DNA of 64,000 nucleotides. It comes from a virus. How positions within the stretch are numbered: position 1 is the first letter of the stretch; every line of letters starts with the position of its first letter. This document shows positions 3,084-23,600 of the stretch, in pieces. A model generated the notes under the pieces. The model did not search any database, was not told the DNA's origin, and saw only the letters and a list, made by a program, of their open reading frames with translations. The position numbers and the translations under genes were made by a program. Location: the IMG/VR virus record IMGVR_UViG_3300020190_000049, positions 4,680 to 68,679 of that record; one strand, given 5' to 3'.

Positions 3084-3381
3084 ATCGTTGTTTAAACCTC
3101 CTCGGCACCTCGTCGAGGAGTGGCCTGAGATTTTTGAAGATATGTATATGAATACGATGCCAGTCTATTATATAGATATGGTTCGGATGGAGTTTACCGA
3201 TGGAAGAGTTTGGGAAATCAATATACAAGAACAATTATACGATCTTCCTAACGAACTAGTTGCTACGAGATTAGTAGATACTTTTCAAGAATTCAAAGAA
3301 GATATTAAAAAGATCGATTTTAAAATTGATGTTGATCGATTAAAACAAGATATTAAAAAACAATCTAGGGATATACTTTAA
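3076..3381 (+). CDS. hypothetical phage protein
   Basis: 101 aa ORF, last gene of the + strand block. Confidence 0.7.
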   Translation: MPKSLFKPPRHLVEEWPEIFEDMYMNTMPVYYIDMVRMEFTDGRVWEINIQEQLYDLPNELVATRLVDTFQEFKEDIKKIDFKIDVDRLKQDIKKQSRDIL

Positions 3382-3484
3382 ACATTTGTTGAAAAATGAT
3401 TCCACGCATAGGGACAATATTTTTTATTCATTTTATTGATTTAGTAAATAACTCTCCAAGTTCGGGTATATAATCAACTATTTT
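3378..3484 (-). pseudogene. relic fragments of radical SAM paralogues
   Basis: 3484-3428 reads KIVDYIPELGELFTKSIK* (resembles the C-terminus of 3485-4753). 3431-3378 reads MNKKYCPYAWNHFSTNV* (resembles its N-terminal LCAVPWMHL). Confidence 0.5.
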
Positions 3485-4753
3485 TCATAGACCTTTCACC
3501 GCTTTGCGAACAACCTCCATCTCTGGAATAGTTTCGAATACATTCTCTTTTCTCAGATTATCTACTTGTGCAGATACTATTAGAAACTTTTTAGCGGCTT
3601 CTAGATTAAATGGCTGGCGTAGTTCGTGAAGTATCTGTGTAAAAATAGAATCTATGCTAGTATTGTATTTTTTATTGTACTCTACAATAAACGATTCTAT
3701 CTTTTCTATGGTAGACATTCTGTAATCGTCTGGTAAGATACTTACATGATAATGTTTAGGATGATCCAGTAAGTTGATAAAGAAGTTGTTATAGTTGACA
3801 TATCGATATATATTAGGATGCCTTCTAATAACACCCAAGTCTGTCAAATAAGTAATCATCTCGGGCAATCGGGCAACGTTCCATGCACCGATAGTCATGC
3901 CAGGTCGCATGATAATATTATCATATTTGGCAATTTCTTTGAGATTGTCTGCTACCTTACTCCATACTGTGCCGCTACGGATCAATTCAGCACGTTCGTC
4001 AATCTCGTCGATGCTAGGCCATACTTCTAATTTGCCCAGTTTCCATTGCTTCCAGTAGTCTAGTACATTCTTTTTTCCATATTCGAGAACTGAACAGTTT
4101 GTATTGTAGCTAAGTTTAACGTCGAAACGTTTATTTTCTACAAGTTTATCGAGTATATGCCAGTGCTCGTCCATCAACAACGGTTCACCACCAGCAAAAT
4201 AGATACGTTTAACGTTATCCATTTGATCTTCTAAGAAGTCGAAGTTTGTTTTATCCTCGACTCCTTCAATGTTCCATACCTTTTCTTGGTCAGTGTAACC
4301 TAGTTTCTTGGCATCGGGCACCCACGCACTGCTGTATCGTGGCCCGCAACTACGGCATTTGAAGTTACACAAGTTACTAAAACGAAAGTCCCAGTACTTC
4401 AAATCCATTTCAGTGCAAGTTCCGTCTTCTAATGTAATGCTAGGAATCTTTTCTAGCACATCAGGAAAGTCTCGATTGTGATAAAACCTGCCGCTGACGC
4501 CAGTAACATCTTCTTTGTTAAAACAAGTATCGCAGACCTTAGGACGCTTTCCTTCAATCATGTCTTTGCGTAACTTCTTCATGTTATCGCTATTCCAGAT
4601 TTCTTCGATGCTTTGCGTAGTTAAGTCACCTGCAAAATAGTTATGATGGCTAGTGAGGCAACACGGCACCACTTTGCCGTTTGGCTCAAAGTTTAAGTGC
4701 ATCCAAGGGACTGCACATAATGTTTCATTCTTTATAGGTATAATTTTGCTCAT
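3485..4753 (-). CDS. radical SAM protein with N-terminal SPASM/twitch-like Cys domain
   Basis: CxxxCxxC motif (NLCNFKCRSC), GGEP motif (FAGGEPLL), and N-terminal CAVPW...VVPCC...CDTC. Confidence 0.9.
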   Translation of the reverse strand: MSKIIPIKNETLCAVPWMHLNFEPNGKVVPCCLTSHHNYFAGDLTTQSIEEIWNSDNMKKLRKDMIEGKRPKVCDTCFNKEDVTGVSGRFYHNRDFPDVLEKIPSITLEDGTCTEMDLKYWDFRFSNLCNFKCRSCGPRYSSAWVPDAKKLGYTDQEKVWNIEGVEDKTNFDFLEDQMDNVKRIYFAGGEPLLMDEHWHILDKLVENKRFDVKLSYNTNCSVLEYGKKNVLDYWKQWKLGKLEVWPSIDEIDERAELIRSGTVWSKVADNLKEIAKYDNIIMRPGMTIGAWNVARLPEMITYLTDLGVIRRHPNIYRYVNYNNFFINLLDHPKHYHVSILPDDYRMSTIEKIESFIVEYNKKYNTSIDSIFTQILHELRQPFNLEAAKKFLIVSAQVDNLRKENVFETIPEMEVVRKAVKGL

Positions 4754-4813
4754 TGTATACTTATGTCCATAGACCGCGACGTACTTTGATAAGACGTATC
4801 ATCAATTTTAGAC

Positions 4814-6181
4814 TTAAGGATGAATATTTTTTGTTCGTTGCTCATACAGGTCCTTAAGCCATTCAAAATCATTTATTTTAAATAACGCATCGTTGTTTCC
4901 GATATTATCATATCCGTACTCTCTTCCTGCTATAGCACCGTCAATAGAATATTTTCCAAACAATCTATCTCGACCGAGATTACACCATGCTTGCAATCTT
5001 AAATCTGTTTCCTCATCATATGTCTCATCCACAGGACGACTAGCCAGTTTTACACATTCGCGAAATGCAGATTTCCATGTAGAAAATTCGTCTGTATCAA
5101 ATCTAGTTTTGTTACTAACTAATTCTATCACTTTTAATCTATCGCTTATCGACATCGTCATATCTACAGTATTTGTATTCATTGAAAGAACTAAATCTCT
5201 GGGTAACAATTTTACTCCGCCATATCCATACACCAAATCATTTATAGGATTAATAGATTGCCAAATAAAAACGATATCTCTTTCGTATCTAGATACTTCA
5301 TAATCGAATTCAAAATCATCTACTATTTCAGCATCGCCATCTACTACATAAAACATGTTTGTTTCTACTATTCCAGCAGCGGCTTTGTGTGCATTATGTA
5401 TACCTTTTATACCATGCACTCTTTTTGCTCTAGGAAATCTCGATTTTAATTTTTCAAAATTTTCATCTGCATTAGGCTCATTATAACTGATAAAAACAAT
5501 ATCATAAGATTTTAATTTAGATGCAACGATTTCGTATTGTTTTTTTTCGATAGGAAATCTAAAATCAATTTCTTTTTTCGATAATTTTTTATTTTTAGGA
5601 ATGCAGGAGATTCCGTTGTAAGTTAATTCGTTCCTAAACTTATGTTGAAATACATGATTCATATTTCTATCATAGAAATTATGATGATTAAAATAAAGAT
5701 CAAAGTCAAAATCTAAAACCTCTACTTCTTTAGGTATCATCCAAAACATTTCCATTCTACTTTTGTCGCAAGCATCGATATAATCATCATACGTGTCTAT
5801 GATAAATTTTTCAAATTGTCGAGGACGAGATGCAACTATATCTATTTCTTTTTTATTTAAAAAGAGTCTATAAGAAAATTCTCTATTTGTAACATTATGT
5901 TCTTTAGAAAAAATACAAATTCCATCAAAAAAGTCTTTATTTTTAAATATGTGAACATAAGAACGATCCCAAATTTCTATCGTATAATCGAAAGAAAAAC
6001 CTTCTTCGACTATTAGGTCGTTCCAAACCACCCAGAAAAATTTAGTCAGAGATTTAGATTTTATTTTATCTAAAGAATCAACATTCTCAAGTTTCTGTGC
6101 TAGCGGAAATCGACTTTGAAATAGTTTCCAGTCGTTTTCGTTTATTTGATTTTTGCTGACATAGAAAAGATCATATTTCAT
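4814..6181 (-). CDS. glycosyltransferase-like protein (GT-A/DxD) with internally repeated domains
   Basis: YDIVFISYNE start, VVDGDAEI DxD motif and YGYGGVKL; paralogous to 6171-7061; two degenerate N-terminal repeats. Confidence 0.65.
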   Translation of the reverse strand: MKYDLFYVSKNQINENDWKLFQSRFPLAQKLENVDSLDKIKSKSLTKFFWVVWNDLIVEEGFSFDYTIEIWDRSYVHIFKNKDFFDGICIFSKEHNVTNREFSYRLFLNKKEIDIVASRPRQFEKFIIDTYDDYIDACDKSRMEMFWMIPKEVEVLDFDFDLYFNHHNFYDRNMNHVFQHKFRNELTYNGISCIPKNKKLSKKEIDFRFPIEKKQYEIVASKLKSYDIVFISYNEPNADENFEKLKSRFPRAKRVHGIKGIHNAHKAAAGIVETNMFYVVDGDAEIVDDFEFDYEVSRYERDIVFIWQSINPINDLVYGYGGVKLLPRDLVLSMNTNTVDMTMSISDRLKVIELVSNKTRFDTDEFSTWKSAFRECVKLASRPVDETYDEETDLRLQAWCNLGRDRLFGKYSIDGAIAGREYGYDNIGNNDALFKINDFEWLKDLYEQRTKNIHP

Positions 6182-7061
6182 GAGAGGATCTATAATAGGT
6201 TTTTGATAATTCTATGGTTTCTATATAAAGATTATAGGTATATTCGCTTTGTTTAGGATCTAGATATGGCCAATTGAATCCCAATTCGTGTTTAATTTTC
6301 GTTCCTAAATCTTGTGTGTCATGTTCTATATCTAAATGTTTTACTTGAGTTTCATAGATTTCTTTCAATACTTCAAAATCTCTAACTTGCACATAATCCC
6401 AATCTGTACAATTAGTCATCCAGGTTCCCATCCTAGTTCCAAGAACGGCATACTTTCCATTGTCAACATGTGATCCAACTGTTGCCCACTGCTTCAATCT
6501 ATGTAAATTGTGCCACCAAATACGTTCTTTAATTTCTTGCGGTGGAACTTTGACTCCATCGAGCAAGGTCATCTTAACGCCCTCACGGAATCCTGCTCGC
6601 CATGCTTGGAATGGAGAACCAGTAATAATTACATCGCTAAAACAATCTGGAAATTGTCTATATCCTTTTTCCCAACAAAAATCTACTTGAGCACGATCGC
6701 TGTTGCTGGCTTCGTGAGTCTTCATGTTTAGAACAAAATCTTTTTTCCATAATTTAACTCCGCCATTACCGTACATAAGACCATTAATAATATTTTTTCC
6801 TACCCAACTATATACGTCAATTTCTTTCTTAAGATCCAAATCTAAATTAAAGAAAGAAGTATAGACAATATTGTCTGCATCTACAGTGACGAATCGATCA
6901 GTTTCCGATAACTCCGCTGCGGCTTTATGCGCTGCATCACTGCCTTTTACACCATGAACACGCTTTGCCCAAGGAACTTTGTTGCACAGATCAGCATAAT
7001 GTAGATCTGCATTAGGTTCATCATAACTTAGAAAAACTACATCAAATTCAATTATTTTCAT
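6171..7061 (-). CDS. glycosyltransferase-like protein (GT-A/DxD)
   Basis: FDVVFLSYDE, TVDADNIV DxD motif, YGNGGVKL, AWRAGFREGVK. Confidence 0.65.
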   Translation of the reverse strand: MKIIEFDVVFLSYDEPNADLHYADLCNKVPWAKRVHGVKGSDAAHKAAAELSETDRFVTVDADNIVYTSFFNLDLDLKKEIDVYSWVGKNIINGLMYGNGGVKLWKKDFVLNMKTHEASNSDRAQVDFCWEKGYRQFPDCFSDVIITGSPFQAWRAGFREGVKMTLLDGVKVPPQEIKERIWWHNLHRLKQWATVGSHVDNGKYAVLGTRMGTWMTNCTDWDYVQVRDFEVLKEIYETQVKHLDIEHDTQDLGTKIKHELGFNWPYLDPKQSEYTYNLYIETIELSKTYYRSSHEI

Positions 7062-7644
7062 AATTCATTACATAATTTTTAAAAATTCTTCTGGTATAGA
7101 TACTAAAATTCAGAGGAACATTGATTTCAAATTCTATGATTTTCGAATTGAACAAATTATCCACAGTAGTCGAAAAAGTTTCGTGTAATCCGTTTGGATC
7201 ATTATAATCGGTCACGAGAAATAACATTTCTGTGCTGCCATCCCAATAAATTTTTCTAGATTTATAAAATTTATCTGATAATTTTATTATCATTTTTTTA
7301 GAAAAAACAGAAATTATTACATCCGGATCTGAGATATCTGACCAAGAAGAATCGATTATTCTATGTAAAACATCATCAATTTTAGTCAGACTTTTATTTT
7401 CAATAATTTCTAAAGAATTATCATCTGTGTTAACGACATACGAATTTAATAATGTTTTACCTTCGAGAACTGATTGTGCAATCTCCTCATCAACTTCTAT
7501 TTTATTAGAAACAGACGGACATGAATGATCCGGATAGATACCTAAAATACCGCCGGATGCAGGATCAAATACAGCATAGTATCTGATCTCTGTTACAGGA
7601 AGACTCTGCATCCATTCTATTAAATCTTTTATCGCGTCTTCCAC
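7048..7644 (-). CDS. hypothetical protein in the glycosyltransferase cluster
   Basis: 198 aa ORF overlapping both neighbours. Confidence 0.7.
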   Translation of the reverse strand: MEDAIKDLIEWMQSLPVTEIRYYAVFDPASGGILGIYPDHSCPSVSNKIEVDEEIAQSVLEGKTLLNSYVVNTDDNSLEIIENKSLTKIDDVLHRIIDSSWSDISDPDVIISVFSKKMIIKLSDKFYKSRKIYWDGSTEMLFLVTDYNDPNGLHETFSTTVDNLFNSKIIEFEINVPLNFSIYTRRIFKNYVMNYENN

Positions 7645-8471
7645 GCTATCTCCTCAAGAATGCTAACTACTTCATCGGTAATTAAATCTTTTTCTACATA
7701 ATGAACAATGTCGTACTGCTGATAATTTCCTATTTTTAATCGAGCATCTTTGTTTAAATAAAACCCTATATGATTTGTAAATTTATCGGCAGGCCAGGGC
7801 CAGTTTTGTATTTCACCTTTCATATGTACGATTCTAGGAAATTCTAAATCATAAGAAACATCATCTTGTATATCTAGAATTTTAGATGATAATGCAAACG
7901 CTTCGTCTGTGCCTATCACCTTAGGTTTAAATTCAGTTAAGAATAAATTACTAAATTCTTTAGGATTTTTAAGAACGTATCTTCCTAGACTGAAAAATTC
8001 CTCGACTAATTTTGAATCTTTACGAAACCATGTCCACATAGAATATAAATTAGGAAGATCGTTTTTAGTAAAACATCTTCTATAAAAATCATTGGTAATG
8101 ACCTCTCCTCTATATGTAAAACTTCGATTCGGAACGTACAACTCGCAATTTTCTATAAAATAATCAATCCAATGGCTGTAATCTCTTAAAAATAGCATGT
8201 CTGCATCTAAACATACTGTATATTCCCAAGGAGTTAATTTATCCATCCAGGATCTTCCGTCCCAGAACGTTTCCTGATTCCACTCTATTATATGATCAAA
8301 TACCCAAGATGATTTAATTTTTTCCAATGAAGTCTTATTATCTATAACTAATGCTACTTTATCATATCCCGATTTTTGAGTATTTTTAATACTCAAGGCT
8401 AAAACATATGCTAATTTTAAATAATCAACAGATTCATTTTTAGAAACAATTATTAAATATCCGAAATTCAT
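7629..8471 (-). CDS. glycosyltransferase-like protein (GT8-like GT-A fold)
   Basis: LAYVLALSIK, TPWEYTVCLDADMLF DxD motif, GTDEAF, IVHMKG. Confidence 0.7.
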   Translation of the reverse strand: MNFGYLIIVSKNESVDYLKLAYVLALSIKNTQKSGYDKVALVIDNKTSLEKIKSSWVFDHIIEWNQETFWDGRSWMDKLTPWEYTVCLDADMLFLRDYSHWIDYFIENCELYVPNRSFTYRGEVITNDFYRRCFTKNDLPNLYSMWTWFRKDSKLVEEFFSLGRYVLKNPKEFSNLFLTEFKPKVIGTDEAFALSSKILDIQDDVSYDLEFPRIVHMKGEIQNWPWPADKFTNHIGFYLNKDARLKIGNYQQYDIVHYVEKDLITDEVVSILEEIAWKTR

Positions 8472-9325
8472 AGATTGATTAATCCTTCGTAATTTCTAAT
8501 AATACTTTGCTTGTTCATTATATGAATATCTTGGTCTTTTATCGATGCTAGATAAAAAGATAAATCATCATTCCAATATTTGATTGAAAATATCATTCTT
8601 CCGTTTTCATATATTTTTTCCAATATATCTTTTCCTTGCAAAGTTAAAATTGCGGGCAAAGAATATCTATTAAATTCAAAACCATTTAATATATGATATG
8701 CTATACTAAATGTAATATCGTTTCTATATTGTCTAGGATCAAATCTAAAAAGGTCTGCATAAAATTTATAATTATCTTTTATAAAATCAATTAATTTAAA
8801 AAATATTCTGCTATTTTCGTTTTTAGTAAACATTACTGTAGTTGCCCAATAAAGGTGAACTCCTGTTTCGCTGATCCAATCATCTAGATATCCCTTTCGA
8901 TCACCTTGTATATCATTAAATCGTTGACCTAATAACACATCTTGATTGATTTCCCAATAATTGTTTAGGACGTCTGTCATTATAAGAAAATCGCTATCTA
9001 TCATCAACGTTTTTTCATAAGGAGTATAATCCCAGACCGACGATCTATTTGAGTTTAAAAAAGGAACTGTCGATGATGTCGTTCCGTCGTGTAAAATTCT
9101 TTGATTTCCCGGCACAGGTCTAGGCACTGATATTATGTTTTCAAAAACATCTACTGCGGTCGACATCAATTTAGAAGTTTTCATCCACTCCTTAGTTGAC
9201 TCATCAGTTATAAGACTAACTGGCAATCGAAGATTTTTTTTGGCGAATTTTGCAGATATTATCGCCATTTTAGCATAATCGATATCTCGACTATTATGAG
9301 CTATGATTACTATTCCTTTTTTCAT
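8468..9325 (-). CDS. glycosyltransferase-like protein (GT8-like GT-A fold)
   Basis: TPYEKTLMIDSDFL DxD motif, RND, DIHIMNK; paralogue of 7629-8471. Confidence 0.7.
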   Translation of the reverse strand: MKKGIVIIAHNSRDIDYAKMAIISAKFAKKNLRLPVSLITDESTKEWMKTSKLMSTAVDVFENIISVPRPVPGNQRILHDGTTSSTVPFLNSNRSSVWDYTPYEKTLMIDSDFLIMTDVLNNYWEINQDVLLGQRFNDIQGDRKGYLDDWISETGVHLYWATTVMFTKNENSRIFFKLIDFIKDNYKFYADLFRFDPRQYRNDITFSIAYHILNGFEFNRYSLPAILTLQGKDILEKIYENGRMIFSIKYWNDDLSFYLASIKDQDIHIMNKQSIIRNYEGLINL

Positions 9326-9672
9326 AGATCTACTAGTTTTTCTACAGATCTACTTTTTTTAATTTTATCGTATTCTTCTTGATATTCAAAAGCGACAGAG
9401 AAAAATCTATCAAAAATTTCTGTTTTGAACATCTCTAAATTTTCTATGAGTATGGGATTTTCATTAGCATCTAAAAGCACAACTCCTTGTGTTCTGCCCT
9501 CGGAACATAGAATTGAAACAAAAGATAAAAGAGTTTGATCAATCTTAAAAATACCGCCATTGAACCCATAGGTTAACTTGGCCTGTATTTTTTCTTTAAG
9601 CGATTTACGTTGTACTGCTAATGTCTGTCTATAGTTAGAAAAATCTAATGCGTTTTTTAATCGATCGTCCAT
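9322..9672 (-). CDS. hypothetical phage protein
   Basis: 116 aa ORF with GGAG RBS and a GTAAATA late-like motif upstream. Confidence 0.75.
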   Translation of the reverse strand: MDDRLKNALDFSNYRQTLAVQRKSLKEKIQAKLTYGFNGGIFKIDQTLLSFVSILCSEGRTQGVVLLDANENPILIENLEMFKTEIFDRFFSVAFEYQEEYDKIKKSRSVEKLVDL

Positions 9673-9726
9673 TTGTACTCCAGAATAAAGTGTGCATATT
9701 ATTTACCTGGAATTTTTTACTTATTT

Positions 9727-10494
9727 TTATTTTCGCAGCCTAGGTTGATGGTTTTCAAATTTGTTATTGTCAGCATCCTCCCCTTTCCAGTATCTTCTAC
9801 CAGCATTATGAGGTTTTTTTAAATCTGGATCTTGTCTCTCATAGGCGAATCTAGATCCCATACGTCGCTCATTGCTGATAACTTCATCGGAAAATAATTC
9901 ATTATCTAATCGTAATTCGAAACTTTCTACGAAATATCTAGGAATCGGTAAAATTGCTGCTATAGGTTGCCCTTTGCAAATCTTGATCTGCTTGTGCGCA
10001 GCGGTAATTTTTAAATTGAATGTAAAATCTCGTCTTAGATTATCAGCTTCTATTACGCCAGTTAAATTTTGAAGATTTTCGAGAATAAAATTTGGAGGAT
10101 TCAAAGTTATTAGATTTACTTTCTTAGCCGTTCGAAAATGGAATCTATTTTGAATCGTGACTATTCCTGAACCAAAATGGCTAGATATAAATTGATGTTG
10201 ATCTAGGTCTGGTTCTTCTATATCTATTGTCACAGCATCATTACCTTCTCGACCATCCCAGATTGCAGTCCATGTATAATAACTACGGATTATGAATCCG
10301 TATTGATTTCCTATCACTAACGGAAGGCAATAATAAAAATGAGAATTAAACCAATCTCGTTTTTTGTTTCCGATTAACGGTTCTACGATTTCATTTACCG
10401 ATTGTCTAAATTTATCTCCCTGAGATATAACCGCTATCACATTATCAGGAATAAGATTGTTTTCATCATTTATTTTAGATTTTATATCCGTCAT
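9727..10494 (-). CDS. DUF6065-like beta-rich protein
   Basis: YYCLPLVIGNQYGF, SHFGSGIVT, LTGVIEADN, FTFNLKIT, KGQPIAAILPIPR resemble the DUF6065 family (recalled, not searched). Confidence 0.55.
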   Translation of the reverse strand: MTDIKSKINDENNLIPDNVIAVISQGDKFRQSVNEIVEPLIGNKKRDWFNSHFYYCLPLVIGNQYGFIIRSYYTWTAIWDGREGNDAVTIDIEEPDLDQHQFISSHFGSGIVTIQNRFHFRTAKKVNLITLNPPNFILENLQNLTGVIEADNLRRDFTFNLKITAAHKQIKICKGQPIAAILPIPRYFVESFELRLDNELFSDEVISNERRMGSRFAYERQDPDLKKPHNAGRRYWKGEDADNNKFENHQPRLRK

Positions 10495-11041
10495 GTCTCG
10501 TCTTATCGAATGTAAAAAAACCAGCTATCGTATATCTTTCTCCCTCTTGGACTTTGGTAACACCATGCATATATTTTAAAGTTGTAGGAAAAATAACTAA
10601 GGTTCCAGGCGATAATTTTGGTTTGAAATTATCAAATTCGGTGAAATAAATTTCACCTCCTTTGTAATTATCATTTAAGTACGTGATGGCAGAATAATTT
10701 CTATAACTAAACGGATGCGTTGTTCCGCCGATGTATTCTGCATCGGCATGCGGTGGATATAAAGAATCTCCGACTCGCCATCTAACAAATTGAAAAATAT
10801 CGCAGTACAAACTATCGGCTACAGAAAAAAAATCTAAAATTTTATTTTTAACTGTGATTCGATATTCTAAAATAGATTCACGAAGGTCGTCAGGCATGGA
10901 AGAGATATTGATAGATCTATTATTCCATACGCTGTGACCGTTGTTTTCCCAGAGATTCGAGAAAATAGCGAAATCGTAATAACTTTGAACTGATCGTTGA
11001 TTTAAAAAATTTTCAACGATCAGTATTTGATCTTTTTCCAC
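10475..11041 (-). CDS. 2OG-Fe(II) oxygenase, prolyl 4-hydroxylase-like
   Basis: HxD (PPHAD), YLNDNYKGGEIYF, distal His (YMHGVTKV) and 2OG-binding Arg (GERYTI). Confidence 0.9.
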   Translation of the reverse strand: MEKDQILIVENFLNQRSVQSYYDFAIFSNLWENNGHSVWNNRSINISSMPDDLRESILEYRITVKNKILDFFSVADSLYCDIFQFVRWRVGDSLYPPHADAEYIGGTTHPFSYRNYSAITYLNDNYKGGEIYFTEFDNFKPKLSPGTLVIFPTTLKYMHGVTKVQEGERYTIAGFFTFDKTRHDGYKI

Positions 11042-11046
11042 AAATT

Positions 11047-12393
11047 TTAAGAGGCATTGAAATCTACAATTCTAGTATTTCCGGAACCGGAAAAGAACAC
11101 AGTAAGCCTAAACTGACCAGTTATGTTCCATGTTCCAGGTGAGGAGAATCCACCAGATCCGTTTAAAGTAGAACTACCCGATAATAAAACCACTCCTGTG
11201 TTTCTGTTAGTATAAGTCGCGGTAAATGATGTGAACGGAACACCACCGCTAGCACTTCCAGTGAAAGATACCGGATAAGGACCCACAAAATTAGGCGGCG
11301 ATATTGATACCGATTCATTATACACCGGGGGAGGTGGCGGCGGTGGCGGTGGCGGCGGTGGCGGTGGCGGTGGTGGCGGTGGTGGCGGCGGTGGCGGTAA
11401 TGGGGGAGGCGGAGGAGGCGTTGTATCGTAGATAAATGAACCGAAAGAGGTGCTACCACCACCTGCACCATTGGGGCCTTTTACAGTAAAGTTACCTGCT
11501 GCCGGAGCAGGTTGCATCGTTCCTCCGGGCTTAATCATGTCTGTAGACACAATGAACGTACCGTTAACAGAATCTTCTGGAGGGAACGATCCAGAACCTC
11601 CACCCGGAGGATCTACGTAACCATCAGTAAATAATACTCTAATAACTATGATATTGGCTGTTCCAGCGGCATTATTTGATACATTACATCGTGCCTGTAA
11701 TCTATAATTATTTGCCGAATAAGGGCTGCTGGCAGATAGTGTATAATAAGTCTGTAATGAACTAGTCAATCTATAAAAATTTGTTCCGTCCATAGGCGAA
11801 AATCCCGAGGACGGGATCTGTCCACCAAATGCTCGAGAGCCGGCAGATGCTAATAGACCAGCCCAACTAGTCGTCTGAGCCTTGGTCACTGAGGGAGTAA
11901 AACTGCTGGAAACACGAAGTTGTCCTCCGCTATTAAAGAAAAATCTCGCTTCATTGGCATTATTGAAAGTATATGTAACATCTACATAACATGTGCTATA
12001 CCATGTTATGTCGCCGGAATTAGTATTAGTTAACGCTTCTGTCGAAAATCTTCCTGTACCAAGATTGAATCTATTTGTGGTTATAGTATCGGCTAATGTA
12101 TCATAGGCGTTATTAGGATGTGCAGCACCATATCTGAGAACATCTCCAGTAGAAATTTGAACGATAGTAGGATTCGTTCCGTTTTGATGTACTAAACAAT
12201 TAAAAATATCAAATCGGAGATTAGACCATTGCGCGGCACCGACTACAACTCCACTAGATACTGATCCGCTCTGTATTCTTGCATCTTGACCGTAGCCAGA
12301 TGTGCCGGATCCGGAGCCTAAAACAGCAATGACTTTGTTTCTTATACTGTTATAATCGACCGCTTCAATTATTCCGCCTACGCTGTTTGCCAT
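11047..12393 (-). CDS. putative virion/tail protein with a polyproline linker and a C-terminal ~90 aa beta domain
   Basis: G/S/T/N-rich beta-type composition; last gene of the fibre series; P6-L-P24 tract. Confidence 0.7.
   Translation of the reverse strand: MANSVGGIIEAVDYNSIRNKVIAVLGSGSGTSGYGQDARIQSGSVSSGVVVGAAQWSNLRFDIFNCLVHQNGTNPTIVQISTGDVLRYGAAHPNNAYDTLADTITTNRFNLGTGRFSTEALTNTNSGDITWYSTCYVDVTYTFNNANEARFFFNSGGQLRVSSSFTPSVTKAQTTSWAGLLASAGSRAFGGQIPSSGFSPMDGTNFYRLTSSLQTYYTLSASSPYSANNYRLQARCNVSNNAAGTANIIVIRVLFTDGYVDPPGGGSGSFPPEDSVNGTFIVSTDMIKPGGTMQPAPAAGNFTVKGPNGAGGGSTSFGSFIYDTTPPPPPPLPPPPPPPPPPPPPPPPPPPPPPPPVYNESVSISPPNFVGPYPVSFTGSASGGVPFTSFTATYTNRNTGVVLLSGSSTLNGSGGFSSPGTWNITGQFRLTVFFSGSGNTRIVDFNAS
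11326..11418 (-). repeat. polyproline-coding CCN repeat (30 of 31 codons Pro)
   Basis: (GGC/GGT/GGA)n on the + strand; mixed third positions indicate selection at protein level. Confidence 0.95.
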
Positions 12394-12402
12394 TTTTGAT
12401 CC

Positions 12403-14221
12403 TTATAAAACTATTGCTTCAACAAGTTTCACATCATGTTTGTCGCTGCTTTCTAATGCAATCGCAAAAAAGACGTCATTCTGACTATGTGTACCGACTG
12501 CATATCCGTCATTCCAAGCCATTAGTTTTTGACCTTTCTGTATTGGTCCCCATACTTTCACAGGAACTCTACCTTTCAGTGCGATATAAGTTCCACCTTC
12601 TAGATCCTTGTTCATCATAAAAGCAGGATTTGCACTGACTACACCTATAGCTCTTGCTCCGGACTCGCAGGCTGTGACTTCTTTTTCTCCCCCCACCATA
12701 ATCACCGTGCCTACATCGTATTCTTGGTCTGCTAGATATTTTTCGGCTAAATCAGCATATTTTGCCGCGGTGGCTGTTCCGTCAAATAGTACCGCAAATA
12801 GATTTCCAGAACTATCTCTAGCCGCGATAGTATTAGCGGTCGCTGTTGTTTTTGCGGAGCGATAGGCCGGATCGGTGTCAGTGGCAGTATCATCTATCTT
12901 CAATCTATCAACCCTATCCGCGACACCTATGAATCGGGTCGCTGTGATATTTGCGCTGGCATCTCTCAATACCACTGACGTAGCGACTGCTCCGCTTTCT
13001 CCCGCTAGGCTGTTTAATGTAAGAGCATTCGTTGAAGTGCCTGTCACTGATCCGATAACGTTTCCTGTTAGCGTGCCGGTGACATTACCAGTAACATTGC
13101 CGGTAATGTTACCAACTACTGGTCCTGTATGCGTTCCTGCGGTGTTACCTGTGACGTTGCCCGTTAAATCTCCGGTAAATGTAAAGGCATGAACATTAGA
13201 CCATCTTTCTGTGGAGGTACCTAAAGAATAAAAATTATTAGTCCCGGGAATGAAACCAGTACTGGTGATATAAAAATTCCGTAAACTGTTACCCGCTGCC
13301 CTGACACGCAAAGTCAATGGATTACCCAATTTTGATTCAGGTGATATAAAAATTCCGTAAACTGTTACCCGCTGCCCTGACACGCAAAGTCAATGGATTA
13401 CCCAATTTTGATTCAATCACCGGTTCGTCACCATTTTCTATACGTATCACGAGATCTTTGGAATAATCAGGAAAATTACCACCGACTGTGAAACCAGGAT
13501 CTGAATAATTAACTTCACTGTCAAATCTTACTTCGCTGGTCCTGACATATTCTGTAGCCAAGAATCCACCTAATCTAGCAGCATTTGAAGCAGTGCCCCA
13601 ATAGAAATGATCTGTGCTAGTAACTCCAGTAACACTATTAGTATTAACTAAGTTTAAACCTTTTTTAATCGCCGTAAATCCAGTGATCGGATTAATCGAA
13701 CTATCTAATGTAAAGGCATCTTTGCTGACGATTACAACCGTGTCTCCGCCCGTTATAAATTTACCTATGCTGTGATTGGTTCCTAGGTTATCTTTTACGA
13801 CCTGCGCGACCAACGAAGAGGCACCCAATTCAGGGGCAGTTTCTGGACCAATAAGCACAAAAGTAGAACCATTGTAGGCATATAATTGTTCTGCGCTAGT
13901 ATCAAACCAAAAATCTCCGGTTTGAAGCCCGGAGGGTGCAGTAGGTCCTATTTCGGCACCACTAGCCGTCCTGAACCTATTACCATCATAAAATTTTAAT
14001 TTTTTGTTTCCGCTATCGTACCAGATCTGACCTGTGATTACTTTAGGTGGAGCACTGGTATTGGCAAAATTCTCTAATAAGTGTAGGAAATTTTCATTCT
14101 GTACTTCGCCGTATCCGGCATAGTTTTTACCTACAAAACGAATATCAGTGGTGGTATCGATGGTACCGTCATCTACAGATACTAAAAATGTTCCATTAAA
14201 TCTATCTACTTGATATGCCAT
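12403..14221 (-). CDS. tail fibre protein with C-terminal YADLAE domain; split into two ORFs by a 76-bp tandem duplication (580 aa when one copy is removed)
   Basis: ORFs 13337-14221 and 12403-13383 share the peptide ESKLGNPLTLRVRAAGNSLRNFYIT. The joined protein is colinear with paralogue 14265-16052. Confidence 0.8.
13264..13415. repeat. exact 76-bp tandem duplication
   Basis: 13264-13339 is identical to 13340-13415. Confidence 0.95.
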
Positions 14222-20678: not shown

Positions 20679-23600
20679 TCGGGCGATTCTGTGCTTCCTG
20701 CAGCGATGAATTTTGCTATAGGTGTATTGTTAGACAACAGCGAAACTCCGGTCGTGGCCGTAGTTTGACCTCTATCATACCACAATCTACCGATTTTCCT
20801 TATAATTTTGATCTTAGTTCCTGCGGGTACCGCTTCGGTTAGTCTTATGAACGGAGTGAGCCCATCTACACTGAATTCTGCTTCTAACAATCCATCGCCG
20901 TCTGGACTGTTGGGTGCTATATCGGAATCATACATGTTTAAAGGATTTTTTCTAAGTCGTTTTCCTCCGACGAAAATTTCGATCTGATCACAGGGCCCAT
21001 GGGTTTGCGGAATCGTATCTCTATACCAAACTGTTCGTGCGCCTTGTGCTGGAACATAATTCAAAGGTCCTATATTTTTAGTGCTACCATCGCTGAAGAA
21101 ATCTTCTATCTCTTCGGTGTCTTTATAGGGTATAGTTTCGTTGGATCCAAGGTCAATAACGTAGCTACCATCATGATGTAATTCTTTGATCGCTGTTCCT
21201 AAACTGCCCCTACGGAGTTGTGATAGCGTATTTCCAGTTTTTTCAAAATATTCAATGCGTTCATTATTGATAGATAATACACCTGGAATATTTTTTGATA
21301 GGATAGGGTCCGATAAACCAGAGGCATCAGTGACTTCTATAGTAGTATCGTAATAATTTAAATTTTTAGTTAATGTCACAGTTTTTTTCTTTTCGTATCT
21401 TTTGTAGATAACGTTATTGAGCATATCTTTAAAGACCTCAAAAGCACGAGGTGGTTGCCATATTATGTTACCAAACTGAACTATTTTAATTAGATCAGTC
21501 GCTGTCGTAGGATCGGTTAGATAAACAACTGCTCTAGGCAATTCGAGATAATAATCTCTGTCTTTGGTCAATCGTTGTCCGTTCTTATAGACCCAGATAT
21601 AATTAGAATTTAACGGAGATCTAGGCAATTTATAATTCACTTTACCACCGCTGAACTCATCGCTGATAAGATCTAGAGTCGGATACTCACTAAACCAGGT
21701 AATAGTTATGTCATCATTGATCGCCAATGGTACAGTTGGATCTATTACGATATTATTGTTTTCTAGTCTATATTTTACGGCAAGATCATTTATCACCGAT
21801 ACAACATCGCCTATGTCTAAAATATTTTCATCGACAGTCAACGTATTTGTGTTACCATCGAACACATAGTCTATGACAAATCTCTTTAATTGTCCGTTAA
21901 CATAAACTTTGATGAATCCCGAAGTGATCGATCCTAAACTTTCTAGAGGATCTGTTCCTAGAATTAAAGAGTTATTTGTGCCGTCGTATACAAAATAATT
22001 GCTATCTACGCCTCGAAGATACTGTCCATTTACCTCGACTATGATAGATGCTAGTGCTGAATTCCTTCCGAGATCTACGAATTTATCGAGATCGAAATTT
22101 CTAGTGCTACCATCATAGGTCACTGTCTGTTGATTAACACGTATAAAAGGAACTCCAGTGGAATCTGTTTCTGTAGAACTTCCGAAACAGATAATCTTAA
22201 TCACCTGTCTAAATGCGGGCGGAATTCCAAATTGTATCAAGGTTCTATTTTCTGTGTCTATCAACTCTGAACTATTCGCAAAACCCGTGTCTATAACCTG
22301 GCCATCCACAGTAACTAATACTCGAAAAGTTTGATCATAGACCGCTTTTGTTAAAAACAGGGTGGTATTACCGTCAGCGATTTTCTGTGTCTGTCAACTC
22401 TGAACTATTCGCAAAACCCGTGTCTATAACCTGGCCATCCACAGTAACTAATACTCGAAAAGTTTGATCATAGACCGCTTTTGTTAAAAACAGGGTGGTA
22501 TTACCGTCAGCGACAAACTCTTGGTAATCTAATAAAGTGATACCGCCGATACCTACTGAAATTATTTCTATTATAGATCCCACAGCAGGAGCCGTGTTAA
22601 ACTCTATTCTGTTGTTTACAAAATCTATAGAATAATTTATCGTGCTGTCGCCGATATATTCTTGGCGCACTTTGTCTATGTAAACCATGACTCCGGAAGA
22701 TTCAAATATCGTCAACCCTATGTCAAAAAATCTAGTGATCCCATCTCCTATTATGATTTTATTCTGTAAAGGTGCTGCTCCTGGACTGGTAGTCGTAAAA
22801 ACTTTTAAACTTAGACTATCAAGTACTTGTCCGGGAATATTTTCTTCAGGGGCCGGTACCTGATCAGGACTGATAAATTTTTCACCATCTACTATTATTT
22901 CTTCGGCAGATGTACCGGTAGCGGTCACGTAGGCTCCACCGATATTAGACAATGATCCACCGCTGATTCTGGTATCTAAGAGATTTACATCAGATATAGT
23001 GACCGAACCGTCACTGTCTAATGTACGGAAAATTAAAGTATCACCCGTTTGTGTACTAAGATAATCATGAATTTCGACAAAATTAGTCGATCCGTCTCCG
23101 ATAAAAGTAGGCATCTGCGCATTAGGATTAGTTGAAACTGCACTATCCCAGGCAGGAGTCCAGGCGGGATCATCTATTCTCGTTGGTCTGGTTTCGCCCG
23201 ATCTTTTTAAGTAGACAGAAATCAACTGTCCGGCGCTGGGGGTATAGGGTAATACAACAAAAGTGGTGCTGCCGTCTGCGACATAATAAAAATCGGCTGA
23301 AGATTCTACACTATCCCAGTTATCTATAAACCAAGGTAACGCATCCCAACCGCCAGTGACATCAAACGTAGTTCCTTGGATTCGGACTCCACCGTAATCA
23401 ATACCAGTCATTAATTGATTTAATTCTTTACCTATCATACCGCTAGACGGAGAGTAATATCTGTCAATTCGATCTATGCTATTAAACAATTCTTGATTTA
23501 TTTCATAGTCGATTTTTATAACATCACCGGTTTTAGGGGCGATTAGAAATCTTATTTTTCCCCTAAGCAAATCGAAGGTATCCACCGATGATCTATAAAG

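What the first reader, a model, noticed from the sequence alone, without database searches (positions are those of the whole stretch)
3485..12393. Candidate virion post-translational modification system: polyproline substrate + prolyl hydroxylase + four glycosyltransferases + radical SAM
Seen: the last tail-associated gene carries a P6-L-P24 tract. Five nt after its stop begins a 2OG-Fe(II) oxygenase with an intact HxD...H...R set, overlapped by a DUF6065-like gene. Two pairs of DxD GT-A-like paralogues and a radical SAM gene follow, all co-directional with the tail operon. Established: prolyl 4-hydroxylases of this fold act on poly-L-proline II substrates, and hydroxyproline is the O-glycosylation acceptor in plant extensins and Dictyostelium Skp1. 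Inference: the phage hydroxylates and then glycosylates its own tail appendage, giving an extensin-like stalk for adhesion, protease resistance or shielding. Other candidate acceptors in the window are the Ser/Gly tail on the gp6-like wedge and the GKP collagen triplets. Enzyme-substrate adjacency is the main evidence; no activity is shown.
Basis: partly seen in the sequence, partly recalled or inferred. Interest (0 to 1): 0.85.

Follow-up and report, generated by a model that had tools for sequence, protein, structure and literature searches.

The report
Phage proline hydroxylase module beside polyproline proteins
A large phage encodes a prolyl-hydroxylase-like enzyme and an uncharacterised partner right after a fibre-operon gene with a 30-proline linker, and across dozens of viral contigs this enzyme pair sits just downstream of proline-rich proteins, which suggests that phages chemically modify such linkers.

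Summary
In detail: a 448-aa protein with P6-L-P24, then (5 nt later) a 188-aa 2OG/Fe(II) oxygenase with invariant HxD...H...R, an overlapping DUF6065 gene, two pairs of DxD paralogues and an N-twitch radical SAM gene, all co-directional.

In 45 of 72 viral loci a Pro-rich ORF lies within 6 kb upstream on the same strand, against 0 of 72 downstream. After dereplication this is 28 of 32 assessable clusters that have the oxygenase. The Pro-rich proteins fall into 13 unrelated families. Five close relatives lack the polyPro tail and both enzymes through one clean ~1.7-kb indel. The oxygenase profile hits prolyl hydroxylases first. Elsewhere DUF6065 is fused to P4H-like domains, a hydroxyproline O-arabinosyltransferase-like domain, cyclophilin, TPR and sulfotransferases.

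The four GT-like genes and the radical SAM gene form a separate cassette. It persists without polyPro or the oxygenase, and 45 of 60 DUF6065 loci lack it.

Verdict: the hydroxylase-substrate link is well supported; "then glycosylated by these GTs" is not. No activity has been shown.

The parts
11047..12393 (-). 448-aa protein, the last gene of the co-directional tail-fibre block. It has an N-terminal domain (aa 1-~313) shared with relatives, a short Gly-rich stretch, a polyPro linker and a 92-aa C-terminal domain (aa 357-448).
   Evidence: ORF and sequence. There are no Pfam or PHROG hits. Homologues of aa 1-322 in L073-L077 are 321-327 aa long and end there. The C-terminal domain is 58% identical to that of L002.
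11326..11418 (-). Polyproline tract P6-L-P24 (residues 326-356), 31 codons with mixed CCN usage.
9718..11454 (-). About 1.7-kb block (Gly-rich stretch + polyPro + C-terminal domain + oxygenase + DUF6065) present here and in L002. In L073 it is replaced by 45 bp, and it is likewise absent in L074 and L077.
   Evidence: blastn of window 9001-12700 against the loci: the flanks align at 76% and 86% identity to L073, and the block itself has no counterpart.
10475..11041 (-). 188-aa prolyl-hydroxylase-like 2OG/Fe(II) oxygenase.
   Evidence: PF13640 at 2.9e-12. H98/D100/H159/R169 are invariant. Family profile against PDB: P3H1 6.3e-16, Bacillus anthracis P4H 1e-11, PBCV-1 P4H 2.6e-7, Chlamydomonas P4H 3e-5.
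9727..10494 (-). 255-aa DUF6065 protein, the conserved partner of the oxygenase. It has a predicted dUTPase-like beta fold plus C-terminal helices.
   Evidence: PF19541 at 1.5e-37. AF2 model pLDDT 90.5. Foldseek against PDB gives dUTPases at E 5e-5, TMt 0.7. The BFVD search gives uncharacterised phage proteins first, then dUTPases. It is adjacent to the oxygenase in most viral loci and in 25 of 53 bacterial loci.
9322..9672 (-). 116-aa protein of unknown function, the first gene of the separate GT/rSAM cassette.
   Evidence: No family hits. It is conserved at the head of the cassette in L002, L003, L005, L010-L025 and L073-L077.
8468..9325 (-). GT1a, 285 aa, a GT8-like (glycogenin-like) putative glycosyltransferase with a DxD motif.
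   Evidence: Some homologues at 57% identity carry PF01501. 3 of 24 family members hit PF01501, best 1.9e-5. The profile against PDB gives glycogenin-1 at 2.4e-5. D110/D112 are invariant.
7629..8471 (-). GT1b, 280 aa, paralogue of GT1a.
   Evidence: 25% identity, E 1e-7.
7048..7644 (-). 198-aa protein of unknown function inside the cassette.
   Evidence: No significant family hits. Conserved position in related loci.
6171..7061 (-). GT2a, 296 aa, predicted GT-A fold (GT2-like) with a DxD motif.
   Evidence: AF2 pLDDT 87.9. Foldseek against PDB gives BcsA, WrtF, RmlT and SunS at E 9e-5 to 1e-3, TMq 0.30-0.36. D61/D63 are invariant. All 8000 scored candidates matched and none of the 120 listed carries a Pfam domain.
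4814..6181 (-). GT2b, 455 aa: an extra N-terminal ~220 aa plus a GT2a-like domain.
   Evidence: 35% identity to GT2a, E 7e-36. It is fused in frame to the radical SAM protein in L076 (644 aa) and L077 (964 aa).
3485..4753 (-). 422-aa radical SAM protein with an N-terminal twitch/SPASM domain, the last gene of the operon.
   Evidence: NF033640 at 7.8e-109. PF13186 SPASM at aa 13-77 and PF04055 at aa 125-281. The CNFKCRSC motif is in the sequence.

Best explanation
The window is a fragment of a jumbo myovirus. Two separate modules follow its tail-fibre block.

Module 1 is the 188-aa prolyl-hydroxylase-like 2OG/Fe(II) oxygenase with its conserved partner DUF6065. Both are made from the same late operon as the 448-aa protein just upstream, and they act on that protein's polyproline (PPII) linker. 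The most likely reaction is hydroxylation of prolines, which uses O2, 2-oxoglutarate and Fe(II). DUF6065 would serve either as the unit that recognises the proline-rich substrate or as a second enzyme that works on the (hydroxy)proline. The polyPro linker with its C-terminal domain and the two enzyme genes were gained or lost together as one ~1.7-kb block.

Module 2 (p116, GT8-like pair, p198, GT-A pair, N-twitch radical SAM) is an independent glycan-building cassette. Its target is unknown: virion proteins in general or the host envelope. It does not depend on hydroxyproline.

Shown: the gene content, the co-occurrence, the indel, the family relations and the fusions. Inferred: the reaction, the substrate, the role of DUF6065 and any glycosylation.
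For: (1) Family. PF13640 is matched above its cut-off and the HxD...H...R set is invariant. The 12 PDB sequences hit by the family profile at E <= 0.01 are all prolyl 3-/4-hydroxylases or PiuC-type hydroxylases, led by P3H1, Bacillus anthracis P4H, PBCV-1 P4H and Chlamydomonas P4H.

(2) Position. A same-strand ORF with a run of at least 8 Pro lies within 6 kb upstream of the pair in 29 of 72 viral loci (262 kb scanned), against 0 of 72 downstream (354 kb). With the looser criterion of at least 10 Pro in 20 aa the counts are 45 of 72 against 0 of 72. 16 of the 27 misses have less than 2 kb of upstream sequence.

(3) Dereplication at 90% DUF6065 identity gives 41 clusters. Of the 32 assessable clusters that have the oxygenase, 28 have a polyPro or Pro-rich ORF upstream. 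Of the 3 assessable clusters without the oxygenase, 0 do. At 70% identity the counts are 19 of 22 and 0 of 3. Positive loci lie in all major viral DUF6065 clades (quick tree).

(4) With the Pro tracts masked, the 45 upstream proteins fall into 13 BLAST families. Their C-terminal domains fall into 12 groups (Ig-like, Hint-like, Cys-rich). PASTA, fn3 and Hint domains occur in some of them. The shared feature is therefore the Pro-rich tract, not a homologous gene.

(5) Natural knock-out. The five closest relatives of the 448-aa protein (66-85% identity over aa 1-322) stop at 321-327 aa, have no polyPro and lack both enzymes. L002 keeps the polyPro, the C-terminal domain and both enzymes. The DNA alignment shows one clean indel.

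(6) DUF6065 fusions elsewhere:
- with 2OG-FeII_Oxy_3 in L206, directly after a 2264-aa polyPro protein, and in 4 of 26 long representatives;
- with an HPAT (hydroxyproline O-arabinosyltransferase) family domain in 4 Planctomycetota loci, of which three were scanned against Pfam at 24.2, 23.7 and 29.5 bits against a cut-off of 23.9;
- with cyclophilin PPIase in 2 proteins;
- with TPR, Cupin_8/JmjC and sulfotransferases.

(7) In a blind sample of 120 viral loci holding (CCN)14, 98 have in-frame runs of at least 12 Pro. Four of these have a P4H-like gene within about 3.3 kb.

(8) Independence of module 2. It is present without module 1 in L073-L077 and RsoM2USA and absent from 45 of 60 DUF6065 loci. 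Its GC is lower (0.31-0.34) than that of the fibre genes (0.40-0.43).
Against: - No activity, no mass spectrometry and no virion data exist. No cultured phage in the collection searched carries DUF6065 (0 records).
- Only 4 of 120 arbitrary polyPro-type viral loci have a P4H-like gene nearby and only 1 has DUF6065. Polyproline proteins therefore do not generally need the enzymes.
- In bacteria the pair mostly stands alone. Only 2 of 53 loci have a Pro-rich ORF upstream and 5 have one downstream, two of them true polyPro.
- 4 dereplicated viral clusters have the pair with at least 2 kb of upstream sequence and no Pro-rich ORF.
- The most frequent fusion partners of DUF6065 are sulfotransferases of the Stf0 type (5 of 26), which are best known for carbohydrate substrates. 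Its fold resembles a nucleotide-binding enzyme. A non-protein substrate is therefore not excluded.
- The HPAT hits are marginal.
- The up/down asymmetry is partly inflated by near-identical contigs and by conserved gene order within clades.
- The tree is the quick one; the careful search did not finish.
Confidence: 0.6

Rival explanations
1. This is the reader's full version: one integrated pathway. The oxygenase makes hydroxyproline on the linker. The four GT-like proteins then build an O-glycan on it, with sugars tailored by the radical SAM enzyme, giving an extensin-like glycosylated stalk.
For: - The cassette lies directly downstream of the oxygenase/DUF6065 pair in 15 of 60 loci with enough downstream sequence. 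These include lineages whose DUF6065 proteins are only ~35-55% identical to the window's.
- Other polyPro+oxygenase+DUF6065 loci carry different GTs nearby: GT7 fused to Laminin_G_3 in L008 and L026.
- DUF6065 is fused to an HPAT-like GT in Planctomycetota.
- The best PDB relatives of GT1 are glycogenins, which glycosylate a protein. SunS/ThuS peptide glycosyltransferases are among the fold hits of GT2a.
Against: - The cassette is kept intact in 5 close relatives and in RsoM2USA, which have no polyPro, no oxygenase and no DUF6065 (for DUF6065).
- 45 of 60 DUF6065 loci lack it.
- The GT1 profile shows no similarity to the HPAT-like domain (probability 0.1%), and no HPAT hit was found for any window protein.
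- The fold hits are generic GT-A enzymes that act on polysaccharides as well as proteins.
- The cassette's GC differs from that of the fibre genes.
Confidence: 0.15
2. Translation helper. The oxygenase/DUF6065 pair modifies the translation machinery (for example EF-P, EF-Tu or a ribosomal protein) so that the host ribosome can read long proline runs. That would equally explain why the pair travels with polyPro genes.
For: - The co-occurrence with Pro-rich ORFs would also be expected under this reading.
- From recall, not from a call: P4H-superfamily enzymes hydroxylate EF-Tu in Pseudomonas and ribosomal protein uS12 in eukaryotes, and polyPro stalls ribosomes without EF-P.
Against: - The profile's PDB hits at E <= 0.01 are collagen-type, algal or viral P4Hs, P3H1 and PiuC. 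No entry named as an EF-Tu or ribosomal prolyl hydroxylase is listed.
- Many associated tracts are repeats such as PPVFT, PPPVL and PPPTT with only 2-4 consecutive prolines.
- 94 of the 98 blind-sample loci with in-frame runs of at least 12 Pro show no P4H-like gene in the DNA held.
- The HPAT and sulfotransferase fusions of DUF6065 are not explained by this reading.
Confidence: 0.08
3. Non-protein substrate. The oxygenase and the dUTPase-fold DUF6065 act on a nucleotide, a nucleotide sugar or a glycan (DNA or envelope modification). Their position after Pro-rich genes would then only reflect conserved gene order at the end of structural operons.
For: - The DUF6065 model matches dUTPases.
- A conserved GVIE(T/S)D..RR motif exists in the family (patterns; A1). 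Its resemblance to dUTPase motif III is my recollection.
- Stf0-type sulfotransferase fusions are the commonest fusions.
- The oxygenase has weak Tet_JBP hits, E 0.06.
- The bacterial pairs are mostly not next to Pro-rich genes.
Against: - 13 unrelated protein families share only the Pro-rich tract.
- The block indel joins the polyPro tail and the enzymes.
- The cyclophilin, TPR, P4H-like, Cupin_8/JmjC and HPAT fusions point to peptide substrates.
- The DUF6065 profile has no significant sequence match to any dUTPase (best E 0.18).
Confidence: 0.07
4. For module 2 only: the GT8-like and GT-A proteins and the radical SAM enzyme remodel the host's surface polysaccharide during infection. This is the reading given in the literature for similar genes in the fibre clusters of pelagimyophages.
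For: Passages of PMC7029224 (find mode) describe GT8 glycosyltransferases and radical SAM cassettes inside the hypervariable host-recognition cluster next to tail fibres. The authors argue for O-chain modification. The GT-A fold hits include polysaccharide and LPS enzymes.
Against: - The authors' reading is itself an inference.
- The cassette is transcribed with late structural genes, its start and stop codons overlap, and it ends the fibre operon.
- No flippase, polymerase or lipid-carrier gene was recognised in it.
Confidence: 0.3

Closest known systems
Chlorovirus PBCV-1 prolyl 4-hydroxylase (PDB 5c5t) and algal Cr-P4H-1 (PDB 2jig)
   Same: A small, single-domain, virus- or alga-encoded P4H of the PF13640 type. 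The family profile hits them at 2.6e-7 and 3e-5. From recall: both accept proline-rich PPII peptides, including poly-L-proline.
   Different: Here the virus is a tailed phage. The enzyme is shorter (188 aa) and is coupled to a DUF6065 partner that those systems are not known to have. It also sits directly after its presumed substrate gene.
Bacillus anthracis P4H (PDB 3itq, 5hv0)
   Same: A bacterial P4H-like enzyme. It is the best full-length PDB match of the family profile (query residues 6-170, E 1e-11).
   Different: From recall: it is studied with collagen-like (GPP)n peptides. It has no DUF6065 partner and no polyPro neighbour that I know of. This was not tested here.
Plant extensin pathway (P4H, then HPAT/GT95, RRA, ExAD) and Dictyostelium Skp1 (P4H1, then Gnt1)
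   Same: An HPAT-family domain is fused to DUF6065 in Planctomycetota.
   Different: No HPAT-like or Gnt1-like GT was recognised in the window. The window's GT cassette is independent of the P4H. Hyp glycosylation in prokaryotes or phages is not known to me.
Mycobacteriophage virion glycosylation
   Same: Phage-encoded GTs next to structural genes decorate capsid and tail-tube proteins. I saw this only as a description and citation of Freeman et al. 2023 in a passage of PMC12619734.
   Different: Those glycans are described at the C-termini of capsid and tail-tube subunits. No hydroxylase or polyPro is mentioned in the passage I saw.
Host-recognition clusters of pelagimyophages and cyanomyophages (PMC7029224)
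   Same: Tail-fibre genes mixed with GT8 glycosyltransferases and radical SAM cassettes (passages).
   Different: This window belongs to a different lineage: its wedge protein is nearest to those of Atu_ph07, SCTP-2, PA5oct and RsoM2USA. The terms 'oxygenase' and 'proline' do not occur in that paper's main text.
Trimeric dUTPases and dUTPase-related proteins
   Same: They share the fold of the DUF6065 core (Foldseek E 5e-5, TMt about 0.7).
   Different: Only about half of DUF6065 aligns (TMq 0.37). There is no significant sequence similarity. DUF6065 has extra N-terminal and C-terminal helices, and its partners are protein-modifying domains.

Membership tests
Prolyl-hydroxylase-type 2OG/Fe(II) oxygenase (Pfam PF13640, 2OG-FeII_Oxy_3) | Score above Pfam's gathering cut-off. 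| tested here: met
   47.8 bits against a cut-off of 27, E 2.9e-12.
Prolyl-hydroxylase-type 2OG/Fe(II) oxygenase (Pfam PF13640, 2OG-FeII_Oxy_3) | Fe(II) facial triad HxD...H and a basic residue for the C5 carboxylate of 2-oxoglutarate. | tested here: met
   H98, D100, H159 and R169 are invariant in 32 aligned relatives.
Prolyl-hydroxylase-type 2OG/Fe(II) oxygenase (Pfam PF13640, 2OG-FeII_Oxy_3) | The nearest characterised relatives are peptidyl-prolyl hydroxylases rather than other 2OG oxygenases. | tested here: met
   Profile against PDB: P3H1 6.3e-16, B. anthracis P4H 1e-11, PBCV-1 P4H 2.6e-7, Cr-P4H 3e-5, then PiuC 2e-4.
Prolyl-hydroxylase-type 2OG/Fe(II) oxygenase (Pfam PF13640, 2OG-FeII_Oxy_3) | Hydroxylation of peptidyl proline. 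| not testable with these tools
   This needs an enzyme assay or mass spectrometry.
DUF6065 (Pfam PF19541) | Score above the gathering cut-off over nearly the whole model. | tested here: met
   129.8 bits against 26.6, model positions 16-234 of 236. The family has 1834 representatives at E <= 0.001 in the 50% identity library.
Glycosyltransferase family 8 (Pfam PF01501) for 8468-9325 and 7629-8471 | Pfam match above the cut-off. | tested here: not met
   The window proteins have 0 families. Only 3 of 24 family members match, best E 1.9e-5. Some 57%-identical homologues carry a precomputed PF01501 hit.
Glycosyltransferase family 8 (Pfam PF01501) for 8468-9325 and 7629-8471 | DxD motif and N-terminal Rossmann-like nucleotide-sugar site as in glycogenin. 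| tested here: inconclusive
   D110 and D112 are invariant. The family profile aligns positions 16-123 to glycogenin-1 residues 15-119 at 2.4e-5.
GT-A fold glycosyltransferase (GT2-like) for 6171-7061 and 4814-6181 | GT-A fold with a DxD motif. | tested here: inconclusive
   Confident model (pLDDT 87.9). Foldseek hits to GT2-type enzymes are at E 9e-5 to 1e-3, but TMq is only 0.30-0.36 and nucleotidyltransferases are also in the list. D61 and D63 are invariant. There is no Pfam or PDB sequence match.
N-terminal-twitch radical SAM (NCBIfam NF033640) | Score above the cut-off, a CxxxCxxC motif and an N-terminal SPASM/twitch domain. | tested here: met
   364.4 bits against 170. SPASM at aa 13-77 and Radical_SAM at aa 125-281. 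The CNFKCRSC motif is in the sequence.
Hydroxyproline O-glycosylation system (P4H plus a Hyp-directed GT such as HPAT/GT95) | A Hyp-directed glycosyltransferase family member in the locus. | tested here: not met
   No HPAT hit for any window protein. The GT1 profile against the HPAT-like domain of L208 gives probability 0.1%. HPAT-like domains are fused to DUF6065 only in 4 Planctomycetota loci.
Hydroxyproline O-glycosylation system (P4H plus a Hyp-directed GT such as HPAT/GT95) | The GTs co-occur with the hydroxylase and the Pro-rich substrate. | tested here: not met
   The cassette occurs without the hydroxylase or polyPro in L073-L077 and RsoM2USA. The hydroxylase/DUF6065 pair occurs without the cassette in 45 of 60 loci.

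The most novel reading that the evidence does not exclude
DUF6065 is a new kind of enzyme or adaptor, built on a dUTPase-like fold, that is dedicated to proline-rich (PPII) segments. Together with a minimal P4H it would form a widespread prokaryotic and phage system for hydroxyproline-based modification of extracellular and virion proteins. The hydroxyl group could be further glycosylated or sulfated by whichever transferase is fused or adjacent. This would be a bacterial and phage counterpart of the plant extensin chemistry, and phages would use it to stiffen, shield or tune the long polyproline spacers of their fibres.
Probability: 0.25. Interest if true: 0.85.

Novelty: new variant of a known kind. 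Interest (0 to 1): 0.72.

Why it matters
Post-translational modification of phage virion proteins is barely explored. 2OG/Fe(II) oxygenases are among the commonest unexplained 'auxiliary' genes of aquatic phages.

- If this pair hydroxylates polyproline spacers, it gives a concrete and easily testable function to one such oxygenase family.
- It would also give a first functional handle on DUF6065, which has 1834 representative clusters and no paper in the library searched.
- It would show that hydroxyproline chemistry, so far tied to eukaryotes, their giant viruses and a few bacteria, is used by tailed phages on their own proteins.
- It would give a rule for annotation: a P4H-like gene plus DUF6065 marks the neighbouring Pro-rich gene as its substrate.
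- It would provide compact enzymes for making hydroxylated PPII or collagen-like materials.

The negative part also matters. The conserved GT8-like / GT-A / radical SAM cassette is an independent module and needs its own explanation.

Tried and rejected
- Close DNA relatives among cultured phages: none by megablast. tblastn with DUF6065 found no phage record. The 448-aa protein and GT2a each matched only Ralstonia phage RsoM2USA, where every gene in both regions is annotated 'hypothetical protein'.
- Single-sequence PDB searches for GT1a, GT2a and DUF6065 gave nothing usable. Profile searches for DUF6065 and GT2 gave nothing significant.
- Complex prediction for the oxygenase with DUF6065 (alignments A4 and A1) returned 'no answer', score 0.00, controls not run. 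I draw nothing from it.
- ESM Atlas look-ups for DUF6065 and GT2a returned only unnamed viral clusters and one weak GT2 lead (score 0.88, 13% of members).
- The promoter/terminator scan of 3200-12700 did not differ clearly from shuffles (54 against 42 +/- 6.2 promoter-like sites; 8 against 4.7 +/- 2.7 terminator-like sites) and showed no boundary between the two modules.
- No tRNA genes were found.
- Moraphage paper (PMC12619734, find-mode passages): it reports four core GT orthogroups, but that lineage is predicted to infect Bacteroidota and the paper does not mention RsoM2USA-like phages. I could not link it to this cassette. Its supplements were not seen.
- A pelagimyophage/cyanomyophage identity for the window was considered and dropped. 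The wedge protein is nearest to those of the jumbo phages Atu_ph07, Phosso, SCTP-2, RsoM2USA and PA5oct.
- Literature searches for DUF6065 (0 papers), phage + prolyl 4-hydroxylase + polyproline (5 papers, none relevant by title or abstract), prolyl hydroxylase + phage + proline-rich + virion (0), HPAT in bacteria (nothing relevant among the 15 listed) and 'twitch domain-containing radical SAM' (6 papers on other enzymes) gave no prior description. This covers only the held library.
- The careful tree search did not finish in the time allowed, so the quick IQ-TREE tree was used.

Full report
WHAT IS THERE

The window is part of a 68.7-kb IMG/VR virus record that CheckV rates about 20% complete. 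Its baseplate wedge protein is nearest to those of the jumbo myoviruses Atu_ph07, Phosso, SCTP-2, RsoM2USA and PA5oct at 32-42% identity. From about 44.2 kb down to 3.5 kb all long ORFs lie on the minus strand: baseplate genes, a 4049-aa ORF and several tail-fibre-like genes. The genes of the finding follow them.

The 448-aa protein (11047-12393) has no Pfam or PHROG hit. It carries P6-L-P24 at residues 326-356 (11418-11326, mixed CCN codons), followed by a 92-aa C-terminal domain.

Five nucleotides after its stop a 188-aa ORF begins. It matches PF13640 (2OG-FeII_Oxy_3) at 47.8 bits against a cut-off of 27. A DUF6065 ORF overlaps it by 20 nt (129.8 bits against 26.6).

After a 54-nt gap comes a tightly packed set of genes with overlapping stops and starts:
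- p116;
- two 280-285-aa paralogues (25% identity, E 1e-7);
- p198;
- a 296-aa protein and its 455-aa paralogue (35% identity, E 7e-36);
- after 60 nt, a radical SAM protein of the N-terminal-twitch family NF033640 (364 bits against 170).

THE OXYGENASE

In an alignment of 32 relatives H98, D100, H159 and R169 are invariant. A profile of that alignment finds 12 distinct PDB sequences at E <= 0.01:
- human prolyl 3-hydroxylase 1 (6.3e-16);
- Bacillus anthracis P4H (1e-11, nearly full length);
- PBCV-1 P4H (2.6e-7);
- Chlamydomonas P4H (3e-5);
- PiuC-type hydroxylases (2e-4);
- human C-P4H alpha-2 (0.0098).

It is a minimal member of the prolyl-hydroxylase branch. Its activity is not shown.

Using the DUF6065 protein I fetched 71 viral loci. 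Using the 448-aa protein I fetched 5.

A P4H-like gene lies just upstream of DUF6065 in most of the loci. I then scanned same-strand ORFs of at least 60 aa.
- A run of at least 8 prolines lies within 6 kb upstream of the pair in 29 of 72 loci (window included; 262 kb scanned) and in 0 of 72 downstream (354 kb).
- With the criterion of at least 10 Pro in 20 residues the counts are 45 of 72 against 0 of 72.
- Of the 27 misses, 16 have less than 2 kb of upstream sequence.

The tracts are pure polyproline (up to 36 in a row) or short repeats such as PPPVL, PPPYV, PPPTT, TPPPP, PPVFT and PPPIIAT.

Many contigs are near copies, so I dereplicated by DUF6065 identity.
- At 90% identity there are 41 clusters. 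Of the 32 assessable clusters that have the oxygenase, 28 have a polyPro or Pro-rich ORF upstream. Of the 3 assessable clusters that lack the oxygenase, 0 do.
- At 70% identity the counts are 19 of 22 and 0 of 3.

On a quick maximum-likelihood tree the positive loci lie in all major viral clades. The careful search did not finish, and one short row was dropped.

The upstream proteins are not one family. With the Pro tracts masked they form 13 BLAST families. The segments after the last tract form 12 groups: Ig-like domains, Hint-like domains and Cys-rich knots. Pfam finds PASTA, fn3 and Hint domains in some. The constant feature is the proline-rich tract itself.

THE NATURAL KNOCK-OUT

The five closest relatives of the 448-aa protein (66-85% identity over residues 1-322) are 321-327 aa long. 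They have no proline tract and are followed directly by p116 and the rest of the cassette, with neither the oxygenase nor DUF6065.

The DNA alignment shows that window 11454-9718 (about 1737 bp) replaces 45 bp of L073. The flanks align at 76% and 86% identity, and L074 and L077 show the same. This block holds the short Gly-rich stretch, the polyPro, the C-terminal domain, the oxygenase and DUF6065.

L002, the nearest contig that has the enzymes, also has a polyPro tract and the homologous C-terminal domain. This is one evolutionary event, but it ties the linker and the enzymes together physically.

THE REVERSE TEST

Only 4 have a P4H-like gene within about 3.3 kb, and only 1 has DUF6065.

The association therefore runs one way. 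The pair predicts a Pro-rich neighbour. Polyproline does not predict the pair.

DUF6065

The family is large: 1834 representatives at E <= 0.001 in the 50% identity library. It appears in no paper of the library searched.

An AlphaFold2 model is confident (pLDDT 90.5). Its core matches trimeric dUTPases (Foldseek E 5e-5, TMt about 0.7 but TMq 0.37). In BFVD it matches uncharacterised phage proteins first and then dUTPases. The sequence profile finds no significant PDB match.

In 53 bacterial loci (mostly MAGs) the P4H-like gene is the upstream neighbour in 25. The surrounding genes vary.

The domain fusions are informative.
- L206 encodes DUF6065 fused to 2OG-FeII_Oxy_3, directly after a 2264-aa protein with polyPro.
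- Four Planctomycetota loci encode an N-terminal domain fused to DUF6065. In the three proteins scanned, that domain matches the hydroxyproline O-arabinosyltransferase family PF23452 at 24.2, 23.7 and 29.5 bits against a cut-off of 23.9.
- Among 9 longer proteins found in the 90% identity collection, 2 carry a cyclophilin PPIase domain, 6 carry TPR repeats and 1 carries an Stf0 sulfotransferase.
- Among 26 long representatives, 5 carry Stf0-type and 3 carry Sulfotransfer_1 domains, 4 carry 2OG-FeII_Oxy_3, 2 carry TPR, 1 carries Cupin_8/JmjC and 1 carries HPAT.

Hydroxylases, a Hyp-directed GT family, a prolyl isomerase and peptide-binding repeats fit a protein substrate centred on proline. The sulfotransferases and the nucleotide-enzyme fold leave room for another reading. 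I cannot say whether DUF6065 recognises the substrate or catalyses a further step.

THE GT-LIKE GENES AND THE RADICAL SAM GENE

For 8468-9325 and 7629-8471 the evidence is:
- no Pfam hit for the window proteins;
- 3 of 24 family members hit GT8, best E 1.9e-5;
- some homologues at 57% identity carry a precomputed PF01501 hit;
- the family profile aligns to glycogenin at 2.4e-5;
- D110/D112 are invariant.

For 6171-7061 the evidence is:
- a confident model (pLDDT 87.9);
- a GT-A fold similar to BcsA, WrtF, RmlT, SunS and SpsA, at modest scores;
- D61/D63 are invariant;
- all 8000 scored candidates matched, and none of the 120 listed has a Pfam domain or a name.

In L076 and L077 the GT2b-like domain is fused in frame to the radical SAM protein, and related loci carry several radical SAM paralogues in a row.

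The whole cassette is conserved in the same order in RsoM2USA, where every gene is 'hypothetical'. It is also present in L073-L077, without polyPro, oxygenase or DUF6065. Conversely, 45 of 60 DUF6065 loci with at least 3 kb of downstream sequence lack it. [quoted passage not shown] The GT1 profile shows no similarity to the HPAT-like domain.

The cassette is thus an independent module. It lies next to the oxygenase pair in 15 loci of several lineages. Other polyPro loci carry different GTs, such as GT7 fused to a lectin-like domain in L008 and L026. A loose functional link to glycosylation of fibre proteins therefore remains possible, but it is not required.

The published reading for similar GT8 and radical SAM genes in pelagimyophage fibre clusters is host O-chain modification (passages of PMC7029224). 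That reading is also an inference.

HOW IT MOST LIKELY WORKS

- Shown: the gene order, the family relations, the co-occurrence, the indel and the fusions.
- Inferred: during late expression the oxygenase hydroxylates prolines of the PPII linker of the protein encoded just before it, using O2, Fe(II) and 2-oxoglutarate.
- Inferred: DUF6065 works with it.
- Inferred: the modified spacer holds a small C-terminal domain away from the fibre.
- Inferred: the GT/rSAM cassette makes or attaches a glycan on an unknown target.

I put 0.6 on the first part.

COMPARISON AND NOVELTY

Viral P4Hs acting on proline-rich repeats are known from chloroviruses, and Hyp O-glycosylation is known from plants and Dictyostelium (both from recall). 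My searches of the held library found no description of a tailed-phage P4H tied to polyproline proteins, nor of DUF6065. I rate this as a new variant of a known kind, with a new obligatory partner family.

Noticed in passing
window 13264-13415 (with ORFs 13337-14221 and 12403-13383, minus strand): A perfect 76-nt tandem duplication (2 copies, 100% identical) splits what looks like one ~600-aa tail-fibre gene into two overlapping ORFs that both encode the peptide ESKLGNPLTLRVRAAGNSLRNFYIT. Together the halves resemble the neighbouring 595-aa fibre paralogue. It is either a real frameshifting duplication or an assembly artefact.
   Followed up: partly
window 34688-38377 (-), residues ~1147-1229: The 1229-aa baseplate wedge protein ends in about 80 residues of GSS/GGS repeats. 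The antisense frame gives a spurious Leu/Pro-rich ORF at 34701-35183.
   Followed up: partly
window 51332-52666 (+): The 444-aa ORF contains about 23 collagen-like G-X-Y triplets (GAAGKP and GAAGQD units). This is another possible substrate for a prolyl hydroxylase and was not examined further.
   Followed up: no
window 22374-34523 (-): A single 4049-aa ORF lies between the baseplate and fibre genes. It was not analysed.
   Followed up: no
L009, L016, L033, L047, L062 (Pro-rich ORFs upstream of the oxygenase pair): In these viral contigs the Pro-rich tract is followed by a Hint/intein-like domain that begins with Cys (a weak Hom_end_hint hit in L033). This suggests self-cleaving proline-rich proteins.
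   Followed up: partly
L006:4929-6626 and L056:5962-7434: These Pro-rich proteins upstream of the pair carry PASTA domains (E 7e-15 and 1e-19). These are peptidoglycan-binding modules on a proline spacer.
   Followed up: no
L076:6415-8346 and L077:14547-17438: These are in-frame fusions of the GT2b-like domain with the N-twitch radical SAM protein. L005, L011, L014 and L073 carry three to five radical SAM paralogues in a row after the GT genes.
   Followed up: partly
L008:12960-14381 and L026:14205-15692: Phage proteins that join a GT7 (beta-1,4-galactosyltransferase-like) catalytic domain to a Laminin_G_3 lectin-like domain, a few kb downstream of polyPro + oxygenase + DUF6065.
   Followed up: no
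L016 and L033/L034: These loci carry two tandem DUF6065 paralogues and three or four P4H-like paralogues in a row, next to virion genes.
   Followed up: no
P0249 and 7 more of the 26 long DUF6065 representatives (alignment A5): DUF6065 is most often fused to sulfotransferase domains (Stf0, Sulfotransfer_3, Sulfotransfer_1). No current explanation accounts for this.
   Followed up: partly
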